Shown here in pieces: positions 3,242 through 7,161 of a stretch of 64,000 nucleotides of DNA. The stretch's first letter is position 1; each line of letters opens with the position of its first letter. The notes beneath the pieces are model-generated. The model saw only the letters and a program-made list of their open reading frames with translations, ran no database searches and was not told the DNA's origin. This stretch comes from Escherichia phage vB_ESM-pEJ01, in sequence record OP114734.1; one strand, 5' to 3'. Both the position numbers and the translations under genes were made by a program.

Positions 3242-3574
3242 TTATTGTTCTACAGTATAACCGTTGTTTTCAAGCCATGCAATAACAATCTTTTCGCCAA
3301 TTTCATCGAGCATTTCATCAGCGCCATATTCTTTAATGAAAGTCGATGGATCATTATTGCTTACTACGTGCTGGATCACAACATGTTCAGGAATTGCGTC
3401 TAGTAGTTCGCTATGATCATACTCATTAACGATATCTTCAACACTAACATTATTAACCAAATCAACATCATCCATAGTCACAGTAACGCGACCGGACGGA
3501 CGCAATGAATATTGGCTACTTTCAACTTCAACATGTGCACTTTCGCAAGTAACTTTCATATCAACCATAATCAA
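3242..3574 (-). CDS. hypothetical acidic protein (110 aa)
   Basis: ORF immediately downstream of rIIB. Confidence 0.45.
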   Translation of the reverse strand: MIMVDMKVTCESAHVEVESSQYSLRPSGRVTVTMDDVDLVNNVSVEDIVNEYDHSELLDAIPEHVVIQHVVSNNDPSTFIKEYGADEMLDEIGEKIVIAWLENNGYTVEQ

Positions 3575-3582
3575 TTCCTCTG

Positions 3583-4584
3583 TTAGTAATGGCTAAAACC
3601 TTCGGTCACATCTTCAACCACATAGTAACGATGACAGCGCATTTTGGCATTTGCATAATCTTTCGGGATACTTACAACGTGACGCGGATCAACTTTGCAT
3701 TTAATGATTCGGCCTCGTCCACCGCCATAGTGCGGAATATAGTGTTTCGCTGCAACGTGGAGGCCATTAGAGCAAGTGCGATCATCATCTGGGTCCACGT
3801 CTTTACGCTTCATTTTAACCGTGCGACCTGGGCTATTATCAAACGTATGCGTAAAGAAATCTTTATAATCAACATCAACACGTTTCCATGCATAGAAACA
3901 ACCATCTTCCACGATCTCAATGTCGTTGTGCTCTAAGAAGTCAAATAGACGATCTACGGCCTTACGGCTAGGGTTTTTCTTGCACTTCTCAAAGAAGTTA
4001 AGATAGTGCGTATATGGCTTATTCTCTTTAATCGACTCCACAACTCGACGAGTCAGATTATTATCAAGAACAATATTATGATAATACACAATACCATTTT
4101 CGATACGGAAAGCGCCGTGATAATATACTTCAACCGCTTTCTTAATGTCAATCAGCGTAATAGCTTTGATGAAATCATTATGTTTAATCGCTTCCAGTGC
4201 TTCCTTAAAGTTAACATGTGATGGATCAGCAGTATAAACAATGTCACCACATGTAATAGTAATAAACTTAGTTGAGGCTATGGCTACGATTTTTGAGGAA
4301 GTAGTCACGGGCTTTTTTGCGCGTTCACCGCCTTTTCCTTTACTGGTTTTACGGCGTGCTTTACGTTTTTCTAGTGCCTTGCGGCCTTCCGCTACTGCGT
4401 CTTTCTGAATCAGTAATACACGGGAAGCAGTGCGACGAGATACACCAAATGCTGCCGCAAGTGCTTCGCGGGTAGTAAACTTACCTTCGCCCCACTGTTT
4501 AGCCAGTTTGATTTGTTTCGCAGAATCCAGACATTGAACGTTACGGTCAGAGACGGTGATTTTTGCTTTAGTCATAGTATTCAT
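3583..4584 (-). CDS. rIIB: rIIB protein
   Basis: Position directly downstream of rIIA; conserved C-terminal blocks FDNSPG..VKM and DVVSIP..DYANAKMR recalled from T4 rIIB; N-terminal HTH-like segment. Confidence 0.8.
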   Translation of the reverse strand: MNTMTKAKITVSDRNVQCLDSAKQIKLAKQWGEGKFTTREALAAAFGVSRRTASRVLLIQKDAVAEGRKALEKRKARRKTSKGKGGERAKKPVTTSSKIVAIASTKFITITCGDIVYTADPSHVNFKEALEAIKHNDFIKAITLIDIKKAVEVYYHGAFRIENGIVYYHNIVLDNNLTRRVVESIKENKPYTHYLNFFEKCKKNPSRKAVDRLFDFLEHNDIEIVEDGCFYAWKRVDVDYKDFFTHTFDNSPGRTVKMKRKDVDPDDDRTCSNGLHVAAKHYIPHYGGGRGRIIKCKVDPRHVVSIPKDYANAKMRCHRYYVVEDVTEGFSHY

Positions 4585-4637
4585 TCCTCTATTAGTTGGG
4601 CGACTATCGCCGCCCGATTCACATCATTATACCAGAA

Positions 4638-4769
4638 TTATTTTGCTTCGACAACCTTGCGGATTGTGCGGTCTGATACATTATAGATTCGTGCCAGTTC
4701 GCCTTTAGTCAAACCGCGAGCGTATTGTTTACGGATGGTTTCTTTCTGGATGGCGGTCAGTTTAGTCAT
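4638..4769 (-). CDS. small helix-turn-helix protein (43 aa), not in ORF track
   Basis: ATG 5 nt after a GAGGTG RBS that directly follows the rIIA stop; translation MTKLTAIQKETIRKQYARGLTKGELARIYNVSDRTIRKVVEAK has a classic HTH. Confidence 0.5.
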   Translation of the reverse strand: MTKLTAIQKETIRKQYARGLTKGELARIYNVSDRTIRKVVEAK

Positions 4770-4780
4770 AATATCACCTC

Positions 4781-6889
4781 TTAAAATTTAACATTCTTAA
4801 CCAGTTTCATAAAGTCTTGTGCGCGTTTGTCATTATGCAGAATACGATACCAGTTATCGACAATATCATACAGTAACGGGCTATTCTCTTTAAACTTCGC
4901 ACAAACTGCTTTAATTCGTTCGTTTGCTACCGTGAATTTTTCATCACAAATCTTTTTAGTTTCTTCGTCCATAACCCAACGAGTACGAAGGAGTAACTTG
5001 GAAACCTCTTTATTATAATGACGACCGTACAGTCTGTCAATAAATTCTGGAACACAGCGTTCTAGTTCATCGTCATGAAACAACATAGTGATCACACCCA
5101 GATATTCGCCATACCCCAGATGATTGGTCTTAACCTTCTTAGCCAGACCAGCCAGCTTACCGCGAACAAATTCTAGCGCACATTCCAATTGTTCGTCAAC
5201 GAGATATTTTTGTGTCTCGTTTCGAGTAATAATATACTTTGTTACCCCGAAGTAGTCAAGCGCCGTGTGTAATGTATTTTCACTATGGATCGATTTACGA
5301 CTACGGCTTTCGAATGCATCACCTACGCGGAACATGTGCAAGCCTGATAACTCGCGAATCTCTGCCGCTTTCATGTGATGGCTGGTTTTATGCCAACTGT
5401 CACCAATCTTTTCCATGATATACACGTTAGGCAGCTTGGGAGTAGCTTCACGTTGTGTACGCTCGGTCTTCTCCGGTTTAACTGCTTTAGCACGCAGATC
5501 ATCGGCCTCAGACACTTTAATCACGGTCATTTCAGAATCATCATAATACTGTTTGATGTACTCGAAAGTCTCCATATGTTTTTCGTTGCGCTGACGGAAC
5601 ACAAGTACCTTTTTATTGATGCCGTATTCCTGGACCATACCGTTAAGAGTCAGTGCACGCAGTTTCGGTTTATCGGTATCATCAATAAGACACGTAATAT
5701 CTTCTTTATGCATCCATACAAAATGCGTAATGTTGTATTGACTGCTAACGAAAGCAGGGCGCAATTTACTGATTGTGTGACGAGTACGATACAGAGTATA
5801 CACCTGACCTTCTACGTCATTAGGCGAATCTTTACCCGCATTCACAAACTTATTATAGATTGCTACCGGATCATCCCACTGCCCGATCTTACCCATCTTG
5901 CTAATAATATTGCGTTGAGTCGATGAATACTCGCTCATAAATTGCGCAAGTTTACGCTCTGTTTTAATGTTGGCGATCTTCTCTTTAACCTTTTCCAACA
6001 TCATTTCATTGATTTCTGCAATGCGTTTTTCGATGTTCGCTTTAGTCTCAATTGACAAGTGAACTTCTTCACGCGATGGCATCAGGTCCAGATCACCCAA
6101 CTCAAAATTAATGTAAATGGTCTGGTGCTGGCGGTTTACAGCTTCTAACCATGTTCCGCGAACATATTCATACGGGATCGGGTACTGGATCTTACCCATG
6201 ATTGCATATACCACATAGGAATCGTTATCACGCCCATTACAAACATAATAATTATCAAAGCTAGGGAAATAATTAATTTCGATTGCATTGATATTAGGTT
6301 TGTGTTCCCCAAAATGACGCAGTACAAACTGTGCTTCTCGATGCCATGTCTGAATATCTTTCTCTTTCACCGGAATAGTGATTTTCAGACCATTGTCTTC
6401 ATAGGTCGGTTCGTCGAAAATCTGCACCATTTTAGGCATAGAGTTTTGCACAAATGCCGTAAAGCCATAAGCGCGACCATTGTAATAGTTTACGATTGTA
6501 AAGGTGTCAGTGTAGCTATAAGCAGATTTCGCACCTAAACCAAAAGATCCGATATAATCATTAGTCTGGTCTTTGGTTGATTCAAAGTAAACCGTAAACA
6601 GTTGTTCTAATTCTTTCTTAGACGGAATACCAGTACCATAATCACGCACAGAAAAATACGGTTCGATTGCAGTCGGTAAATGAATATCAAACGGACGATC
6701 TAAGGTTCCTGCTTCTTTGTGAGTGTCGGTAGCATTACATGAATACTCACGGACGCAAGCACGCTCACAATATTGATAAGTGTTCTTAGAAAGCACCATA
6801 AAAGCCTTGCTACTTGCTTTCAGAGAAAAATCAACCGCACCGCTCAAGTCACTGCCAAATACTTCCTCATTATCGATATGCATTTTCAT
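4781..6889 (-). CDS. rIIA: rIIA protein (GHKL/Bergerat-fold ATPase N-terminus)
   Basis: 702 aa; GHKL-type motifs (DYGTGIP, GSFGLGAKSAYSYTDTFT); synteny with rIIB and topoisomerase 39. Confidence 0.85.
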   Translation of the reverse strand: MKMHIDNEEVFGSDLSGAVDFSLKASSKAFMVLSKNTYQYCERACVREYSCNATDTHKEAGTLDRPFDIHLPTAIEPYFSVRDYGTGIPSKKELEQLFTVYFESTKDQTNDYIGSFGLGAKSAYSYTDTFTIVNYYNGRAYGFTAFVQNSMPKMVQIFDEPTYEDNGLKITIPVKEKDIQTWHREAQFVLRHFGEHKPNINAIEINYFPSFDNYYVCNGRDNDSYVVYAIMGKIQYPIPYEYVRGTWLEAVNRQHQTIYINFELGDLDLMPSREEVHLSIETKANIEKRIAEINEMMLEKVKEKIANIKTERKLAQFMSEYSSTQRNIISKMGKIGQWDDPVAIYNKFVNAGKDSPNDVEGQVYTLYRTRHTISKLRPAFVSSQYNITHFVWMHKEDITCLIDDTDKPKLRALTLNGMVQEYGINKKVLVFRQRNEKHMETFEYIKQYYDDSEMTVIKVSEADDLRAKAVKPEKTERTQREATPKLPNVYIMEKIGDSWHKTSHHMKAAEIRELSGLHMFRVGDAFESRSRKSIHSENTLHTALDYFGVTKYIITRNETQKYLVDEQLECALEFVRGKLAGLAKKVKTNHLGYGEYLGVITMLFHDDELERCVPEFIDRLYGRHYNKEVSKLLLRTRWVMDEETKKICDEKFTVANERIKAVCAKFKENSPLLYDIVDNWYRILHNDKRAQDFMKLVKNVKF

Positions 6890-6903
6890 AATATAATCCT
6901 CAC

Positions 6904-7161
6904 TTAATTAAAATCTTCTTCGTCCATCTCTGCGTAGATTACATCCCACGCCCATAAATCAATAAACGCATTATATGTCACGGTGCAATCGTTGTCAATC
7001 ACTTCTTTCGCATATTTCTTGATGTTTTCGTAGGAAACTTGCGGATCAATTTTGTGTTTACGAAGGTGTGCATATTCATACCTCAAACATTTCATAAACA
7101 GGTTCATCGATTTCTTTTCTCGATGACACTTGGCGATCAGAAAATCAAAACTTCGACTCAT
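6904..7161 (-). CDS. hypothetical protein (rIIA.1 position)
   Basis: ORF between rIIA and the topoisomerase gene. Confidence 0.4.
   Translation of the reverse strand: MSRSFDFLIAKCHREKKSMNLFMKCLRYEYAHLRKHKIDPQVSYENIKKYAKEVIDNDCTVTYNAFIDLWAWDVIYAEMDEEDFN

What the first reader, a model, noticed from the sequence alone, without database searches (positions are those of the whole stretch)
4638..4769. Small HTH gene inserted between rIIA and rIIB
A 43-aa ORF with a canonical helix-turn-helix (GLTKGELARIYNVSDRTIRKV) starts 5 nt after a GAGGTG RBS that abuts the rIIA stop codon. In T4, as I recall, rIIA and rIIB are directly adjacent, so this would be an extra small DNA-binding protein in the classical rII locus. 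It is below the length cut-off of the ORF track.
Basis: partly seen in the sequence, partly recalled or inferred. Interest (0 to 1): 0.5.

Follow-up and report, generated by a model that had tools for sequence, protein, structure and literature searches.

The report
Free-standing RIIB-type HTH gene in rII locus
A real, strongly conserved 43-codon gene sits between rIIA and rIIB of this RB49-like (Krischvirus) phage and encodes a stand-alone copy of the helix-turn-helix module that RIIB proteins normally carry at their own N-terminus; databases already list it as a hypothetical protein and its function is untested.

Summary
On the minus strand, 4769..4638 encodes a 43-aa protein. Its ATG lies 5 nt after a GAGGTG that abuts the rIIA stop. 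The window is a Krischvirus (99% to phage kvi). The ORF is already annotated as a hypothetical protein (RB49p274, kvi_140, PHROG 15481).

It is a genuine gene. Five to six divergent metagenomic lineages keep it at 43-45 codons in the same rIIA-ORF-rIIB synteny. dN/dS is 0.02-0.33 with synonymous sites near saturation. The protein is 69-86% identical where RIIA is only 36-40%. AlphaFold gives a three-helix HTH (pLDDT 90.7). The protein has pI 10.4.

Its best family match is the N-terminal HTH of RIIB proteins (hhalign 99.1%, E 9e-19; RIIB-N HMM 50 bits, against 26 bits for the best Pfam HTH). The resident RIIB keeps its own, more diverged HTH. A related phage has three tandem copies in RIIB plus the free one. 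T4, Jiaodavirus, Karamvirus and two sister metagenomic lineages lack the gene.

Most likely it is a small basic DNA-binding subunit or regulator co-expressed with rIIA/rIIB. This role is inferred, not shown. Interest is modest.

The parts
4638..4769 (-). 43-codon gene (ATG 4769-4767, TAA 4640-4638). It encodes a 4.98-kDa, pI 10.4 three-helix HTH protein (helices 6-18, 22-28, 33-41).
   Evidence: Translation. Annotated as RB49p274 / kvi_140. PHROG 15481, E 3e-34. AF2 pLDDT 90.7. dN/dS 0.02-0.33. Charge and pI.
4775..4780 (-). Shine-Dalgarno GAGGTG, 5 nt before the ATG and directly after the rIIA stop codon (4781-4783).
   Evidence: Sequence. A (T)GAGGTG or GGTGA element 3-5 nt before the ATG is kept in L008, L009, L011, L012 and L016.
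4781..6889 (-). rIIA (702 aa). Its stop lies 11 nt before the small gene's ATG.
   Evidence: PHROG 612, E 1e-187. Annotation in kvi and RB49.
5012..5040 (-). Perfect sigma-70-type promoter match (TTGACA-17-TATAAT) inside the 3' end of rIIA, 271 nt upstream of the small gene's ATG. It is a candidate internal promoter for the small gene and rIIB.
   Evidence: Scan. A 10-12 of 12 match lies 223-271 nt upstream of the ATG in L016, L012, L011 and L009 although RIIA is only about 40% identical. This is a consensus match only; function is inferred.
4626..4654 (-). Second promoter-like site (TTGTCG-17-TG-n-TATAAT, extended -10) overlapping the last codons and stop of the small gene. It is a candidate rIIB-proximal promoter.
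   Evidence: The same TTCTGGTATAAT occurs in L008, and TTGACA-type sites occur just after the ORF in L009 and L012.
4598..4615 (-). GC-rich stem-loop GGGCGGC-GAUA-GUCGCCC between the small gene and rIIB. It lies at about +4..+21 of a transcript from the 4654..4626 promoter and has no T-run.
   Evidence: Fold -17.9 kcal/mol, z -2.5. A hairpin at the same place but with different stem sequences is found in L008, L009, L011, L012 and L016. No Rfam match.
3583..4575 (-). rIIB (330 aa from the annotated ATG 4575; SD AGAGGA at 4590-4585).
   Evidence: PHROG 609, E 2.5e-106. Annotation. AF2 model pLDDT 86.6.
4405..4539 (-). Resident N-terminal HTH of RIIB (residues about 13-57; helices 18-29, 36-42, 47-56). 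It is followed by a long helix and a disordered basic linker (residues 81-92). It is a diverged paralogue of the small gene's product.
   Evidence: AF2. Alignment A1, 33% identity to the small protein. RIIB-N HMM 33.5 bits.

Best explanation
The 43-codon ORF is a functional early gene of Krischvirus-like T4 relatives. It encodes a minimal, highly basic three-helix HTH protein. This protein is a free-standing member of the HTH module family found at the N-terminus of RIIB proteins.

Shown here: the gene is kept at 43-45 codons with its own Shine-Dalgarno site in at least five divergent lineages. It is under strong purifying selection and is the best-conserved protein of the locus. It is confidently predicted to fold as an HTH. 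It matches RIIB N-termini better than any curated HTH family. Within the related loci recovered here, it occurs only in rII loci whose RIIB keeps a second, more diverged HTH.

Inferred: it is transcribed with rIIA and from a conserved internal promoter in the rIIA 3' end. It is translated just after rIIA, probably by coupling, since its ATG occupies the position 11 nt after the rIIA stop that the rIIB ATG occupies in T4. It binds DNA through the invariant recognition helix S-D-R-T-I-R-K-V-V. It acts in trans as an accessory DNA-contact subunit or regulator of the RIIA (GHKL-ATPase-like) / RIIB system.

The most economical origin is duplication of the rIIB 5' HTH module, followed by fission into a separate cistron. 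Tandem copies of the module are seen in a related phage whose RIIB has three.
For: Real gene:
- Homologues P0001-P0005 are all 43 aa. L016/L017 carry a 45-aa version.
- The synteny rIIA-ORF-rIIB-...-gp52 is kept in L008, L009-L013 and L016/17.
- Nei-Gojobori dN/dS is 0.02-0.33 with pS 0.47-0.81. Fisher p ranges from 4e-10 to 8e-3.
- Three-nucleotide differences within Krischvirus are all synonymous.
- The protein is 69-86% identical, where RIIA is 36-40% and RIIB 54-65%.
- The SD is conserved.

Fold:
- AF2 pLDDT is 90.7, with helices 6-18, 22-28 and 33-41.
- Foldseek's best matches are DNA-bound HTH domains of IstA, resolvase, CENP-B and NarL, with TM 0.7-0.8.
- Pfam CENP-B_N scores 26 bits, above its 21.2 cut-off.
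- pI is 10.4 and net charge +6.5.

RIIB-N relationship:
- The best non-self tblastn hits in 50,697 phage records are the first 40 residues of full-length RIIB (52% identity).
- In alignment A1 the protein is 40% identical to T4 RIIB and 47% to Jiaodavirus RIIB.
- An HMM of 113 RIIB N-termini, excluding this clade, scores the small proteins at 49-55 bits over its full length. The resident Krischvirus-clade RIIB HTHs score 29-33 bits.
- hhalign gives 99.1% probability, E 9e-19.

Module copy number varies: L008 RIIB has three tandem HTHs, and P0066 has two. The window RIIB keeps its own HTH plus a flexible basic linker.

Absence elsewhere: the gene is missing in T4, Jiaodavirus and Karamvirus, and L019 and L021.

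Promoter matches.

Literature context: RIIB has been regarded as an HTH transcription factor and RIIA as a GHKL ATPase (PMC7824862). RIIB has been described as a membrane anchor of the replisome (PMC13001434).
Against: - There is no expression, DNA-binding or phenotype data for this ORF. None was found in the literature library.
- I could not find a demonstration that the RIIB N-terminal HTH itself binds DNA.
- With only about 40 residues, specific common ancestry with RIIB-N cannot be separated cleanly from general HTH similarity. HTH modules of unrelated proteins score nearly as well. Examples are the HNH-endonuclease C-terminus P0024 (48.8 bits with the small-ORF HMM), the T5orf172 protein P0094 (48.2 bits with the RIIB-N HMM), and the free 49-aa P0077 in a non-rII context.
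- The resident RIIB HTH of the same genome scores only 2.2 bits with the small-ORF HMM, so any duplication is old.
- No candidate operator was found. The only nearby inverted repeat changes sequence between lineages, while the recognition helix is invariant.
- From my own knowledge, classical T4 genetics (the r1589 fusion, the Crick-Brenner B1 segment) indicates that the RIIB N-terminus is dispensable for growth on lambda lysogens. The module's role may therefore lie outside Rex evasion.
Confidence: 0.6

Rival explanations
1. It is an autonomous small transcription regulator of the early programme, unrelated in function to RII. For example, it could be a sigma-70 region-4-like HTH that occupies -35-type elements or the RNA-polymerase flap. 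That would help switch transcription in phages that lack the T4 MotA/AsiA middle-mode system.
For: - Pfam Sigma70_r4 is the second-best hit (21.1 bits, profile positions 3-39 of 50). ECF-sigma region-4 models also hit. The precomputed Pfam list for P0002 and the L016 homologue includes Sigma70_r4.
- No motA orthologue or middle-promoter consensus was found in RB49, and RB49 is not among the phages listed with AsiA (PMC1524935).
- The sister lineage L019, which lacks the small gene, carries an AsiA gene a few kb downstream.
- The gene lies in an early, promoter-rich region.
Against: - The Sigma70_r4 score is below the family cut-off of 24.1. Such hits are typical of any three-helix HTH; RIIB N-termini hit the same Pfam families.
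- The RIIB-N profile fits about twice as well (50 bits).
- The anti-correlation with AsiA rests on very few, phylogenetically confounded lineages.
- No repeated target motif was identified.
Confidence: 0.2
2. It is a leftover or domesticated DNA-binding domain of a mobile homing-endonuclease-type gene that once inserted between rIIA and rIIB.
For: - The highest single-domain match in the 1.84-billion-protein library is the C-terminal HTH of an HNH-type endonuclease (P0024, 48.8 bits, about 53% identity by eye). P0094 is an HTH fused to T5orf172.
- From my own knowledge, T4-like genomes often carry free-standing endonuclease genes between conserved genes.
Against: - There is no room for, or trace of, a nuclease domain. 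The ATG is 4-11 nt after the rIIA stop, and the stop is followed by 52-70 nt of promoter, hairpin and SD.
- No paralogue exists elsewhere in the window.
- Strong purifying selection, a fixed length and a conserved SD across lineages with about 40% RIIA identity argue for a working gene, not debris.
Confidence: 0.07
3. It is a decoy or shield in the arms race around RIIB. The free HTH would mask or mimic part of RIIB so that host systems that sense RIIB are not triggered, or it would compete with the RIIB of co-infecting phages.
For: RIIB is the trigger of a bacterial gasdermin/CARD system (PMC10312443) and of Tmn (PMC13001434), so the locus is under defence-driven selection. HTH copy number in the locus is evolutionarily labile.
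Against: - The mapped Tmn determinant (D219 of T2 RIIB) lies in the C-terminal domain, not the HTH.
- The extreme conservation of the small protein is the opposite of what arms-race surfaces usually show.
- There is no direct evidence.
Confidence: 0.05
4. It is not an independent product. It would be a chance ORF, a C-terminal extension of RIIA by readthrough or frameshift, or an N-terminal piece joined to RIIB by gene-60-like translational bypass.
For: In the window the ORF ends GCA AAA TAA and rIIB codons 4-5 are GCA AAA, with a hairpin in the 62-nt gap. This superficially resembles matched take-off and landing codons.
Against: - A chance ORF is excluded by conservation and dN/dS.
- The rIIA-to-ORF gap is 4, 10 or 11 nt, in different frames in different lineages.
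- The GCA AAA match is absent in L011, L012 and L016. rIIB always has its own SD and ATG, and usually a promoter in the gap.
Confidence: 0.02

Closest known systems
N-terminal HTH module of RIIB proteins of T4-like phages (T4 RIIB residues about 5-45, the region encoded by the classical B1 segment)
   Same: Same length and three-helix pattern. Shared motif L-T/x..Q-K..I....G..K..L-A..(F/Y)-(G/N)-V-S-x-(R/D)-T-I-x-(R/K)-V. hhalign probability 99.1%; RIIB-N HMM 50 bits. It starts 11 nt after the rIIA stop, as T4 rIIB does.
   Different: It is a separate 43-aa polypeptide with its own stop codon, not fused to the RIIB C-terminal domain. It co-exists with a resident, more diverged RIIB HTH (33% identity). 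It is much more conserved than RIIB itself.
Simple three-helix HTH DNA-binding domains of recombinases and transposases and of CENP-B (Pfam CENP-B_N, HTH_7, HTH_23/28/38; structures 8b4h IstA, 1zr2/1gdt gamma-delta resolvase, 1hlv CENP-B)
   Same: The predicted fold superposes with TM 0.72-0.79 and rmsd 1-2.4 A on the best of these. CENP-B_N scores above its gathering threshold.
   Different: Those domains are parts of large enzymes or two-domain binders. Foldseek E-values are all above 0.1 because the domain is so small. No catalytic partner domain is present here.
Sigma-70 region 4 and the T4 AsiA/MotA sigma-appropriation system
   Same: HTH of similar length. There are weak profile hits to Sigma70_r4 and ECF sigma region 4. 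It occurs in a phage group for which no MotA or AsiA was reported.
   Different: The hits are below the family threshold. There is no similarity to MotA or AsiA themselves. The genomic context is the rII locus, not the motA or asiA loci.
C-terminal HTH modules of phage homing endonucleases (HNH or T5orf172 type)
   Same: About 50% identity over 38 residues to the HTH of P0024. P0094 carries a comparable N-terminal module.
   Different: No nuclease domain is present. It is fixed in one locus across a clade, with no sign of mobility or of paralogues.

Membership tests
RIIB N-terminal HTH module family | Three-helix helix-turn-helix fold of about 40 residues | tested here: met
   AF2 pLDDT 90.7, helices 6-18, 22-28 and 33-41. 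The same pattern appears in the window RIIB model (helices 18-29, 36-42, 47-56).
RIIB N-terminal HTH module family | Profile-level sequence similarity to RIIB N-termini exceeding that to other HTH families | tested here: met
   HMM of 113 RIIB N-termini: 49-55 bits. hhalign 99.1%, E 9e-19. Best Pfam HTH 26 bits. Caveat: a few unrelated HTH modules, picked from 1.84 billion proteins for similarity to the ORF, reach 44-48 bits.
RIIB N-terminal HTH module family | Encoded immediately downstream of rIIA | tested here: met
   The ATG lies 11 nt after the rIIA stop, the same gap as rIIA-rIIB in T4. The gap is 4-11 nt in relatives.
RIIB protein (Pfam Phage_T4_rIIB, PHROG 609) | Covalent linkage to the conserved RIIB C-terminal alpha/beta domain | tested here: not met
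   The ORF has its own TAA stop at 4640-4638, followed by a 62-nt gap with a promoter-like site, a hairpin and an SD before rIIB. It is therefore not an RIIB protein, only a relative of one of its modules.
RIIB N-terminal HTH module family | DNA binding by the module | not testable with these tools
   DNA binding is predicted from the fold and from pI 10.4. No experimental data were found for the ORF or for RIIB-N.
Pfam CENP-B_N (psq-type HTH) | Score above the gathering threshold | tested here: met
   26.0 bits against a cut-off of 21.2, E 7e-6. This identifies a generic HTH class, not a functional assignment.
Sigma-70 region 4 | Score above the gathering threshold, with region 4.1 and 4.2 context inside a sigma factor | tested here: not met
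   21.1 bits against a cut-off of 24.1. No other sigma regions are present; the protein is 43 aa.
Homing-endonuclease remnant | Adjacent nuclease domain or its decayed remains | tested here: not met
   The flanks are the rIIA stop (11 nt upstream) and a 62-nt regulatory gap. No paralogue or nuclease motif was found in the window.
Gene-60-type translational bypass | Matched take-off and landing codons and a take-off stem-loop, conserved among relatives | tested here: not met
   The GCA AAA match occurs in the window only and is absent in L011, L012 and L016. The hairpin starts about 22-26 nt after the stop codon, not at it.

The most novel reading that the evidence does not exclude
The free 43-aa HTH may not be a mere accessory of RII. 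It could be a sigma-70 region-4-like or RIIB-N-like micro-protein that reprogrammes transcription, or masks RIIB from host sensors, in T4 relatives that lack the MotA/AsiA system. In that case the ancient, near-universal RIIB N-terminal HTH would be a separable regulatory device. This is the 'dispensable' B1 region used by Crick and Brenner. The Krischvirus clade would have released it as its own gene.
Probability: 0.08. Interest if true: 0.75.

Novelty: new variant of a known kind. Interest (0 to 1): 0.38.

Why it matters
The molecular function of the rII proteins is still unclear some 70 years after Benzer. RIIB is now known to be sensed by at least two bacterial defence systems. The RIIB N-terminal HTH is nearly universal, yet classical genetics suggests it is dispensable for growth on lambda lysogens.

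In one clade this module exists as a separate gene that is more conserved than RIIA or RIIB. That offers a clean genetic handle: the module can be deleted, tagged, or supplied in trans without touching the RIIB C-terminal domain. The variable copy number (one to three in RIIB, plus one free) also shows the module is an independently evolving unit.

For annotation, PHROG 15481 / RB49p274-type 'hypothetical proteins' can be labelled 'RIIB N-terminal-like HTH protein'.

Tried and rejected
- The search for related loci cannot take a 43-aa query. With RIIB as query it found only near-identical Krischvirus contigs in IMG/VR. The metagenome scan gave one near-identical and one remote locus.
- Rfam has no match in 4300-5100.
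- PDB sequence searches found nothing for RIIB and only E > 0.2 generic HTH hits for the small protein. Foldseek returned only generic HTH domains with E > 0.1. NCBIfam gave only sub-threshold HTH hits.
- The profile search of 1.84 billion representatives returned mostly unrelated multi-HTH repeat proteins. Only one RIIB relative (P0066) was in the top 150.
- The contexts of the best free-standing or N-terminal look-alikes are unrelated to rII. P0077 sits next to a nuclease-like gene. P0094 is a T5orf172 protein near a terminase.
- RB43 has no rIIB at the corresponding end of its record, so it was uninformative.
- Recent tandem duplication of the resident rIIB 5' end is rejected: the resident HTH scores 2.2 bits with the small-ORF HMM.
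- The hairpin as an operator for the HTH is rejected: stem sequences differ between lineages while the recognition helix is invariant.
- Readthrough or frameshift from rIIA is rejected: the gaps of 4, 10 and 11 nt fall in different frames.
- Gene-60-like bypass into rIIB is rejected: the matched GCA AAA is not conserved.
- A second copy elsewhere in the window was not found.
- Literature searches found no paper that discusses this ORF. Desplats et al. 2002 on RB49 is not held in the library.

Full report
**Identity of the window and check of the observation**

The region 3400-7000 is 99% identical to Escherichia phage kvi and 98% to RB49, Phi1, JSE and other members of the genus Krischvirus.

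On the minus strand, 4769..4638 translates to MTKLTAIQKETIRKQYARGLTKGELARIYNVSDRTIRKVVEAK. The minus-strand sequence shows four features in a row:
- the rIIA stop TAA at 4783-4781
- GAGGTG at 4780-4775
- five spacer bases
- the ATG at 4769

The flanking ORFs are RIIA (4781..6889; PHROG 612, E 1e-187) and RIIB (3583..4575; PHROG 609, E 2.5e-106).

In T4 the rIIA stop (position 12) and the rIIB start (168903, circularly adjacent) are 11 nt apart with nothing between them. The ORF is therefore extra relative to T4.

It is not new to the databases. It is RB49p274 (NP_891845) in RB49, kvi_140 in kvi, and 'hypothetical protein' in about 58 Krischvirus records. It also has its own PHROG (15481, unknown function).

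**Is it a gene?**

A search of 5.8 billion proteins found five clusters. All are 43 aa long and 98, 86, 86, 77 and 69% identical to the window protein.

Their contigs show the same order in each lineage: rIIA, small ORF, rIIB and, where the contig is long enough, the topoisomerase gene 52 (L008, L009-L013). A further lineage was reached through its RIIB (63% identical). It has a 45-aa version (L016/L017).

Codon-level comparison gives the following:
- Nei-Gojobori dN/dS is 0.02-0.33.
- The proportion of synonymous differences is 0.47-0.81, which is near saturation.
- Window vs L012 has 21 of 31 synonymous sites changed against 9 of 98 non-synonymous sites (Fisher p 4e-10).

Within Krischvirus, the three-nucleotide differences seen in RB49 and three metagenomic contigs are all silent.

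The small protein is 69-86% identical in lineages whose RIIA is only 36-40% identical and whose RIIB is 54-65% identical. It is therefore the most conserved product of the locus.

A (T)GAGGTG or GGTGA Shine-Dalgarno element 3-5 nt before the ATG is kept in all lineages. This is a protein-coding gene under purifying selection.

**What the protein is**

AlphaFold2, run on the small alignment, gives a confident three-helix bundle. pLDDT is 90.7, with helices at 6-18, 22-28 and 33-41. The protein is 4.98 kDa, has pI 10.4 and a net charge of about +6.5.

Foldseek against the PDB returns only DNA-binding HTH domains, with TM 0.7-0.8 and E > 0.1 as expected for 43 residues. These are the IstA transposase, gamma-delta resolvase, CENP-B and NarL/LuxR.

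Pfam gives CENP-B_N at 26 bits (cut-off 21.2), followed by a string of sub-threshold HTH families including Sigma70_r4 at 21 bits. Twenty-eight of 43 positions are invariant among the six distinct homologues. These include the whole turn and recognition helix T-K-G-E-L-A-R-x-Y-N-V-S-D-R-T-I-R-x-V-V-E.

**Relationship to RIIB**

In 50,697 phage records, the best hits outside Krischvirus are the first 40 residues of full-length RIIB proteins of other T4-like genera. Examples are Jiaodavirus at 52% identity, and Karamvirus, Bp7 and Serratia X20. Annotated regions confirm that these matches lie at the very start of about 303-aa RIIB genes that directly follow rIIA.

In a joint alignment the small protein is 40% identical to the T4 RIIB N-terminus, 47% to Jiaodavirus, 39% to Karamvirus and 33% to the RIIB of its own genome.

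I built an HMM from the first 58 residues of 113 RIIB proteins, excluding the Krischvirus clade. Its scores are:
- small proteins: 49-55 bits over the full module
- resident RIIB HTHs of the Krischvirus clade: 29-33 bits

A profile-profile comparison of the small-protein alignment with 22 diverse RIIB N-termini gives 99.1% probability, E 9e-19. RIIB N-termini hit the same set of generic Pfam HTH families as the small protein.

The AF2 model of the window RIIB shows:
- its own N-terminal HTH (helices 18-29, 36-42, 47-56; pLDDT 96-98)
- a long helix
- a disordered basic linker (residues 81-92)
- the C-terminal alpha/beta domain

The genome therefore has two RIIB-type HTH modules, one free and one fused. 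The free one is closer to the family consensus: its recognition helix reads RTIRKV against the consensus RTIGRV / DTIRRV, while the fused one reads RTASRV.

The module is evolutionarily mobile within the locus. The RIIB of L008 (459 aa) carries three tandem copies in addition to the free gene. A 775-aa RIIB relative carries two.

There is a caveat. The profile search of 1.84 billion representatives shows that this kind of HTH is widespread. A few unrelated modules score nearly as well: the C-terminus of an HNH endonuclease (P0024), a T5orf172 protein (P0094), and a 49-aa protein in a non-rII context (P0077). The resident HTH scores only 2.2 bits with the small-protein HMM. The relationship to RIIB-N is therefore well supported at family level. 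A recent duplication of the resident 5' end is excluded, and a foreign origin cannot be ruled out.

**Distribution**

The free gene is present in Krischvirus and in at least four further uncultured lineages whose RIIB is 54-65% identical.

It is absent from T4, Jiaodavirus and Karamvirus, and from two metagenomic sister lineages (L019, RIIB 43% identical; L021). In L019 and L021, rIIA is followed by a terminator-like hairpin with a T-run, then a GTTTAC..TATAAT promoter, then an rIIB with a canonical HTH.

The simplest history is a gain in the ancestor of the Krischvirus-like clade. The ATG of the free gene sits 11 nt after the rIIA stop, exactly where the rIIB ATG sits in T4. I therefore favour duplication of the 5' HTH module followed by fission into a separate cistron. 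The fission would have come from acquiring a stop codon, a promoter/hairpin spacer and a new SD/ATG. Insertion of a foreign gene is less likely.

**Expression signals (all inferred)**

A perfect TTGACA-17-TATAAT match lies inside the rIIA 3' end at 5040..5012, 271 nt upstream of the ATG. A 10-12 of 12 match lies 223-271 nt upstream in L016, L012, L011 and L009, despite only about 40% RIIA identity.

A second site with an extended -10 (TTGTCG-17-TGGTATAAT, 4654..4626) overlaps the end of the small gene. It would start a transcript just upstream of a GC-rich hairpin at 4615..4598.

A hairpin occupies this spacer in every lineage, but with different stem sequences and no T-run. It looks like an RNA-level element, perhaps a 5' or 3' stabiliser, rather than an operator. 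The recognition helix of the HTH is invariant while the stems change. Rfam has no match.

**Mechanism proposed**

The following parts are shown here:
- It is a conserved, selected gene.
- It has a confident HTH fold and a strongly basic charge.
- It belongs to the RIIB-N family.
- It is exclusively associated with rII loci in this clade.

The following parts are inferred:
- It is made early, together with RIIA, probably by translational coupling.
- It binds DNA through helix 3.
- It acts in trans with the RII proteins.

On sequence grounds, RIIA is a GHKL-type ATPase and RIIB has been regarded as an HTH transcription factor (PMC7824862). RIIB has also been described as the membrane anchor of the replisome (PMC13001434). 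A free copy of the DNA-contact module could add a second DNA contact or regulate the locus.

From my own knowledge of classical T4 genetics, the rIIB N-terminus is dispensable for growth on lambda lysogens. The evidence is the r1589 rIIA-rIIB fusion and the B1 segment used for the triplet-code frameshift experiments. The BASEL paper mentions r1589. This fits the idea that the HTH is a separable module whose role lies outside Rex evasion.

**Rivals**

- An autonomous regulator that stands in for the missing MotA/AsiA system. RB49 has no motA or middle-promoter consensus (PMC1524935). L019, which lacks the gene, has asiA nearby. The sigma-region-4 similarity is sub-threshold and generic.
- A domesticated homing-endonuclease HTH. 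There is no nuclease remnant and the gene is under strong selection.
- A decoy in the RIIB-sensing arms race. RIIB triggers the gasdermin/CARD and Tmn systems. However, the mapped determinant D219 is C-terminal, and the small protein is hyper-conserved.
- Not an independent product, that is a chance ORF, readthrough or bypass. This is excluded by selection, by variable gap frames and by the non-conserved take-off/landing look-alike.

**Verdict**

The gene is already annotated as a hypothetical protein and belongs to a very common structural class.

What I add is twofold. First, it is a free-standing member of the RIIB N-terminal HTH family, more conserved than RIIA and RIIB. Second, this module varies in copy number within rII loci. 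That makes it a three-gene variant of a classical two-gene system. It is of modest but genuine interest as a handle on the still-unknown function of RIIB's N-terminal module.

Noticed in passing
L008:4685-6064 (ENA ERZ27260015 k141_60519): The RIIB of this Krischvirus-related metagenomic phage is 459 aa. It carries three tandem RIIB-type HTH repeats (about residues 1-44, 56-103 and 144-184; 55, 45 and 39 bits with the RIIB-N HMM) in addition to the free 43-aa gene upstream. P0066, a 775-aa RIIB relative, has two.
   Followed up: partly
window 4598-4615 (minus); L008, L009, L011, L012, L016 spacers: A GC-rich hairpin lies between the small gene and rIIB in every lineage. The stem sequences are unrelated (GGGCGGC, GCGCCUC, ACGUCCUGA, GCGUCCUAUA, GCGUCCC, GCGCCC) and there is no T-run. 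In L009 and L012 the -10 hexamer of a promoter-like site sits in the loop. There is no Rfam match. It is probably an RNA stabiliser or processing element.
   Followed up: partly
window 5012-5040 (minus): A perfect sigma-70 consensus promoter (TTGACA-17-TATAAT) lies inside the rIIA coding sequence. A near-consensus match is kept at 223-271 nt upstream of the small gene in four other lineages, although RIIA protein identity is only about 40%.
   Followed up: partly
window 4309-4347 (minus; RIIB residues 77-89): The Krischvirus-clade RIIB proteins share a basic linker motif, KTSKG(K)GG-x-(R/K)-AKKP, between the HTH/long helix and the C-terminal domain (window, L016, L008). AF2 predicts it to be disordered (pLDDT < 50 for residues 81-92). 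It is absent from T4 RIIB.
   Followed up: no
window 4638-4646 and 4561-4566 (minus): The small gene ends GCA AAA TAA and rIIB codons 4-5 are also GCA AAA. This resembles the matched take-off and landing codons of T4 gene 60 bypassing. It is not conserved in L011, L012 or L016, so it is probably chance.
   Followed up: yes
window 4573-4584 (minus): The longest rIIB ORF starts at ATG 4584 (MNTMTK...), but that ATG lies directly after the AGAGGA Shine-Dalgarno site. The ATG at 4575, 9 nt after the SD, is the likely true start. It is the start used in the RB49 and kvi annotation and gives a 330-aa protein.
   Followed up: yes
L019:3918-4000 and L021:3914-4000: Sister lineages without the small gene have a canonical intrinsic terminator right after rIIA. 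One has a UUCG-loop hairpin GGGGCUUCGGCCCC followed by a T-run. A T4-early-type promoter follows, then rIIB. L019 also carries an AsiA gene about 4 kb downstream of rIIB.
   Followed up: no
L022 (RB43, NC_007023:177500-180500): In RB43 the end of the record, upstream of the rIIA stop that defines the origin, carries ndd and small hypothetical ORFs but no rIIB. rIIA and rIIB are therefore not adjacent in that phage.
   Followed up: no
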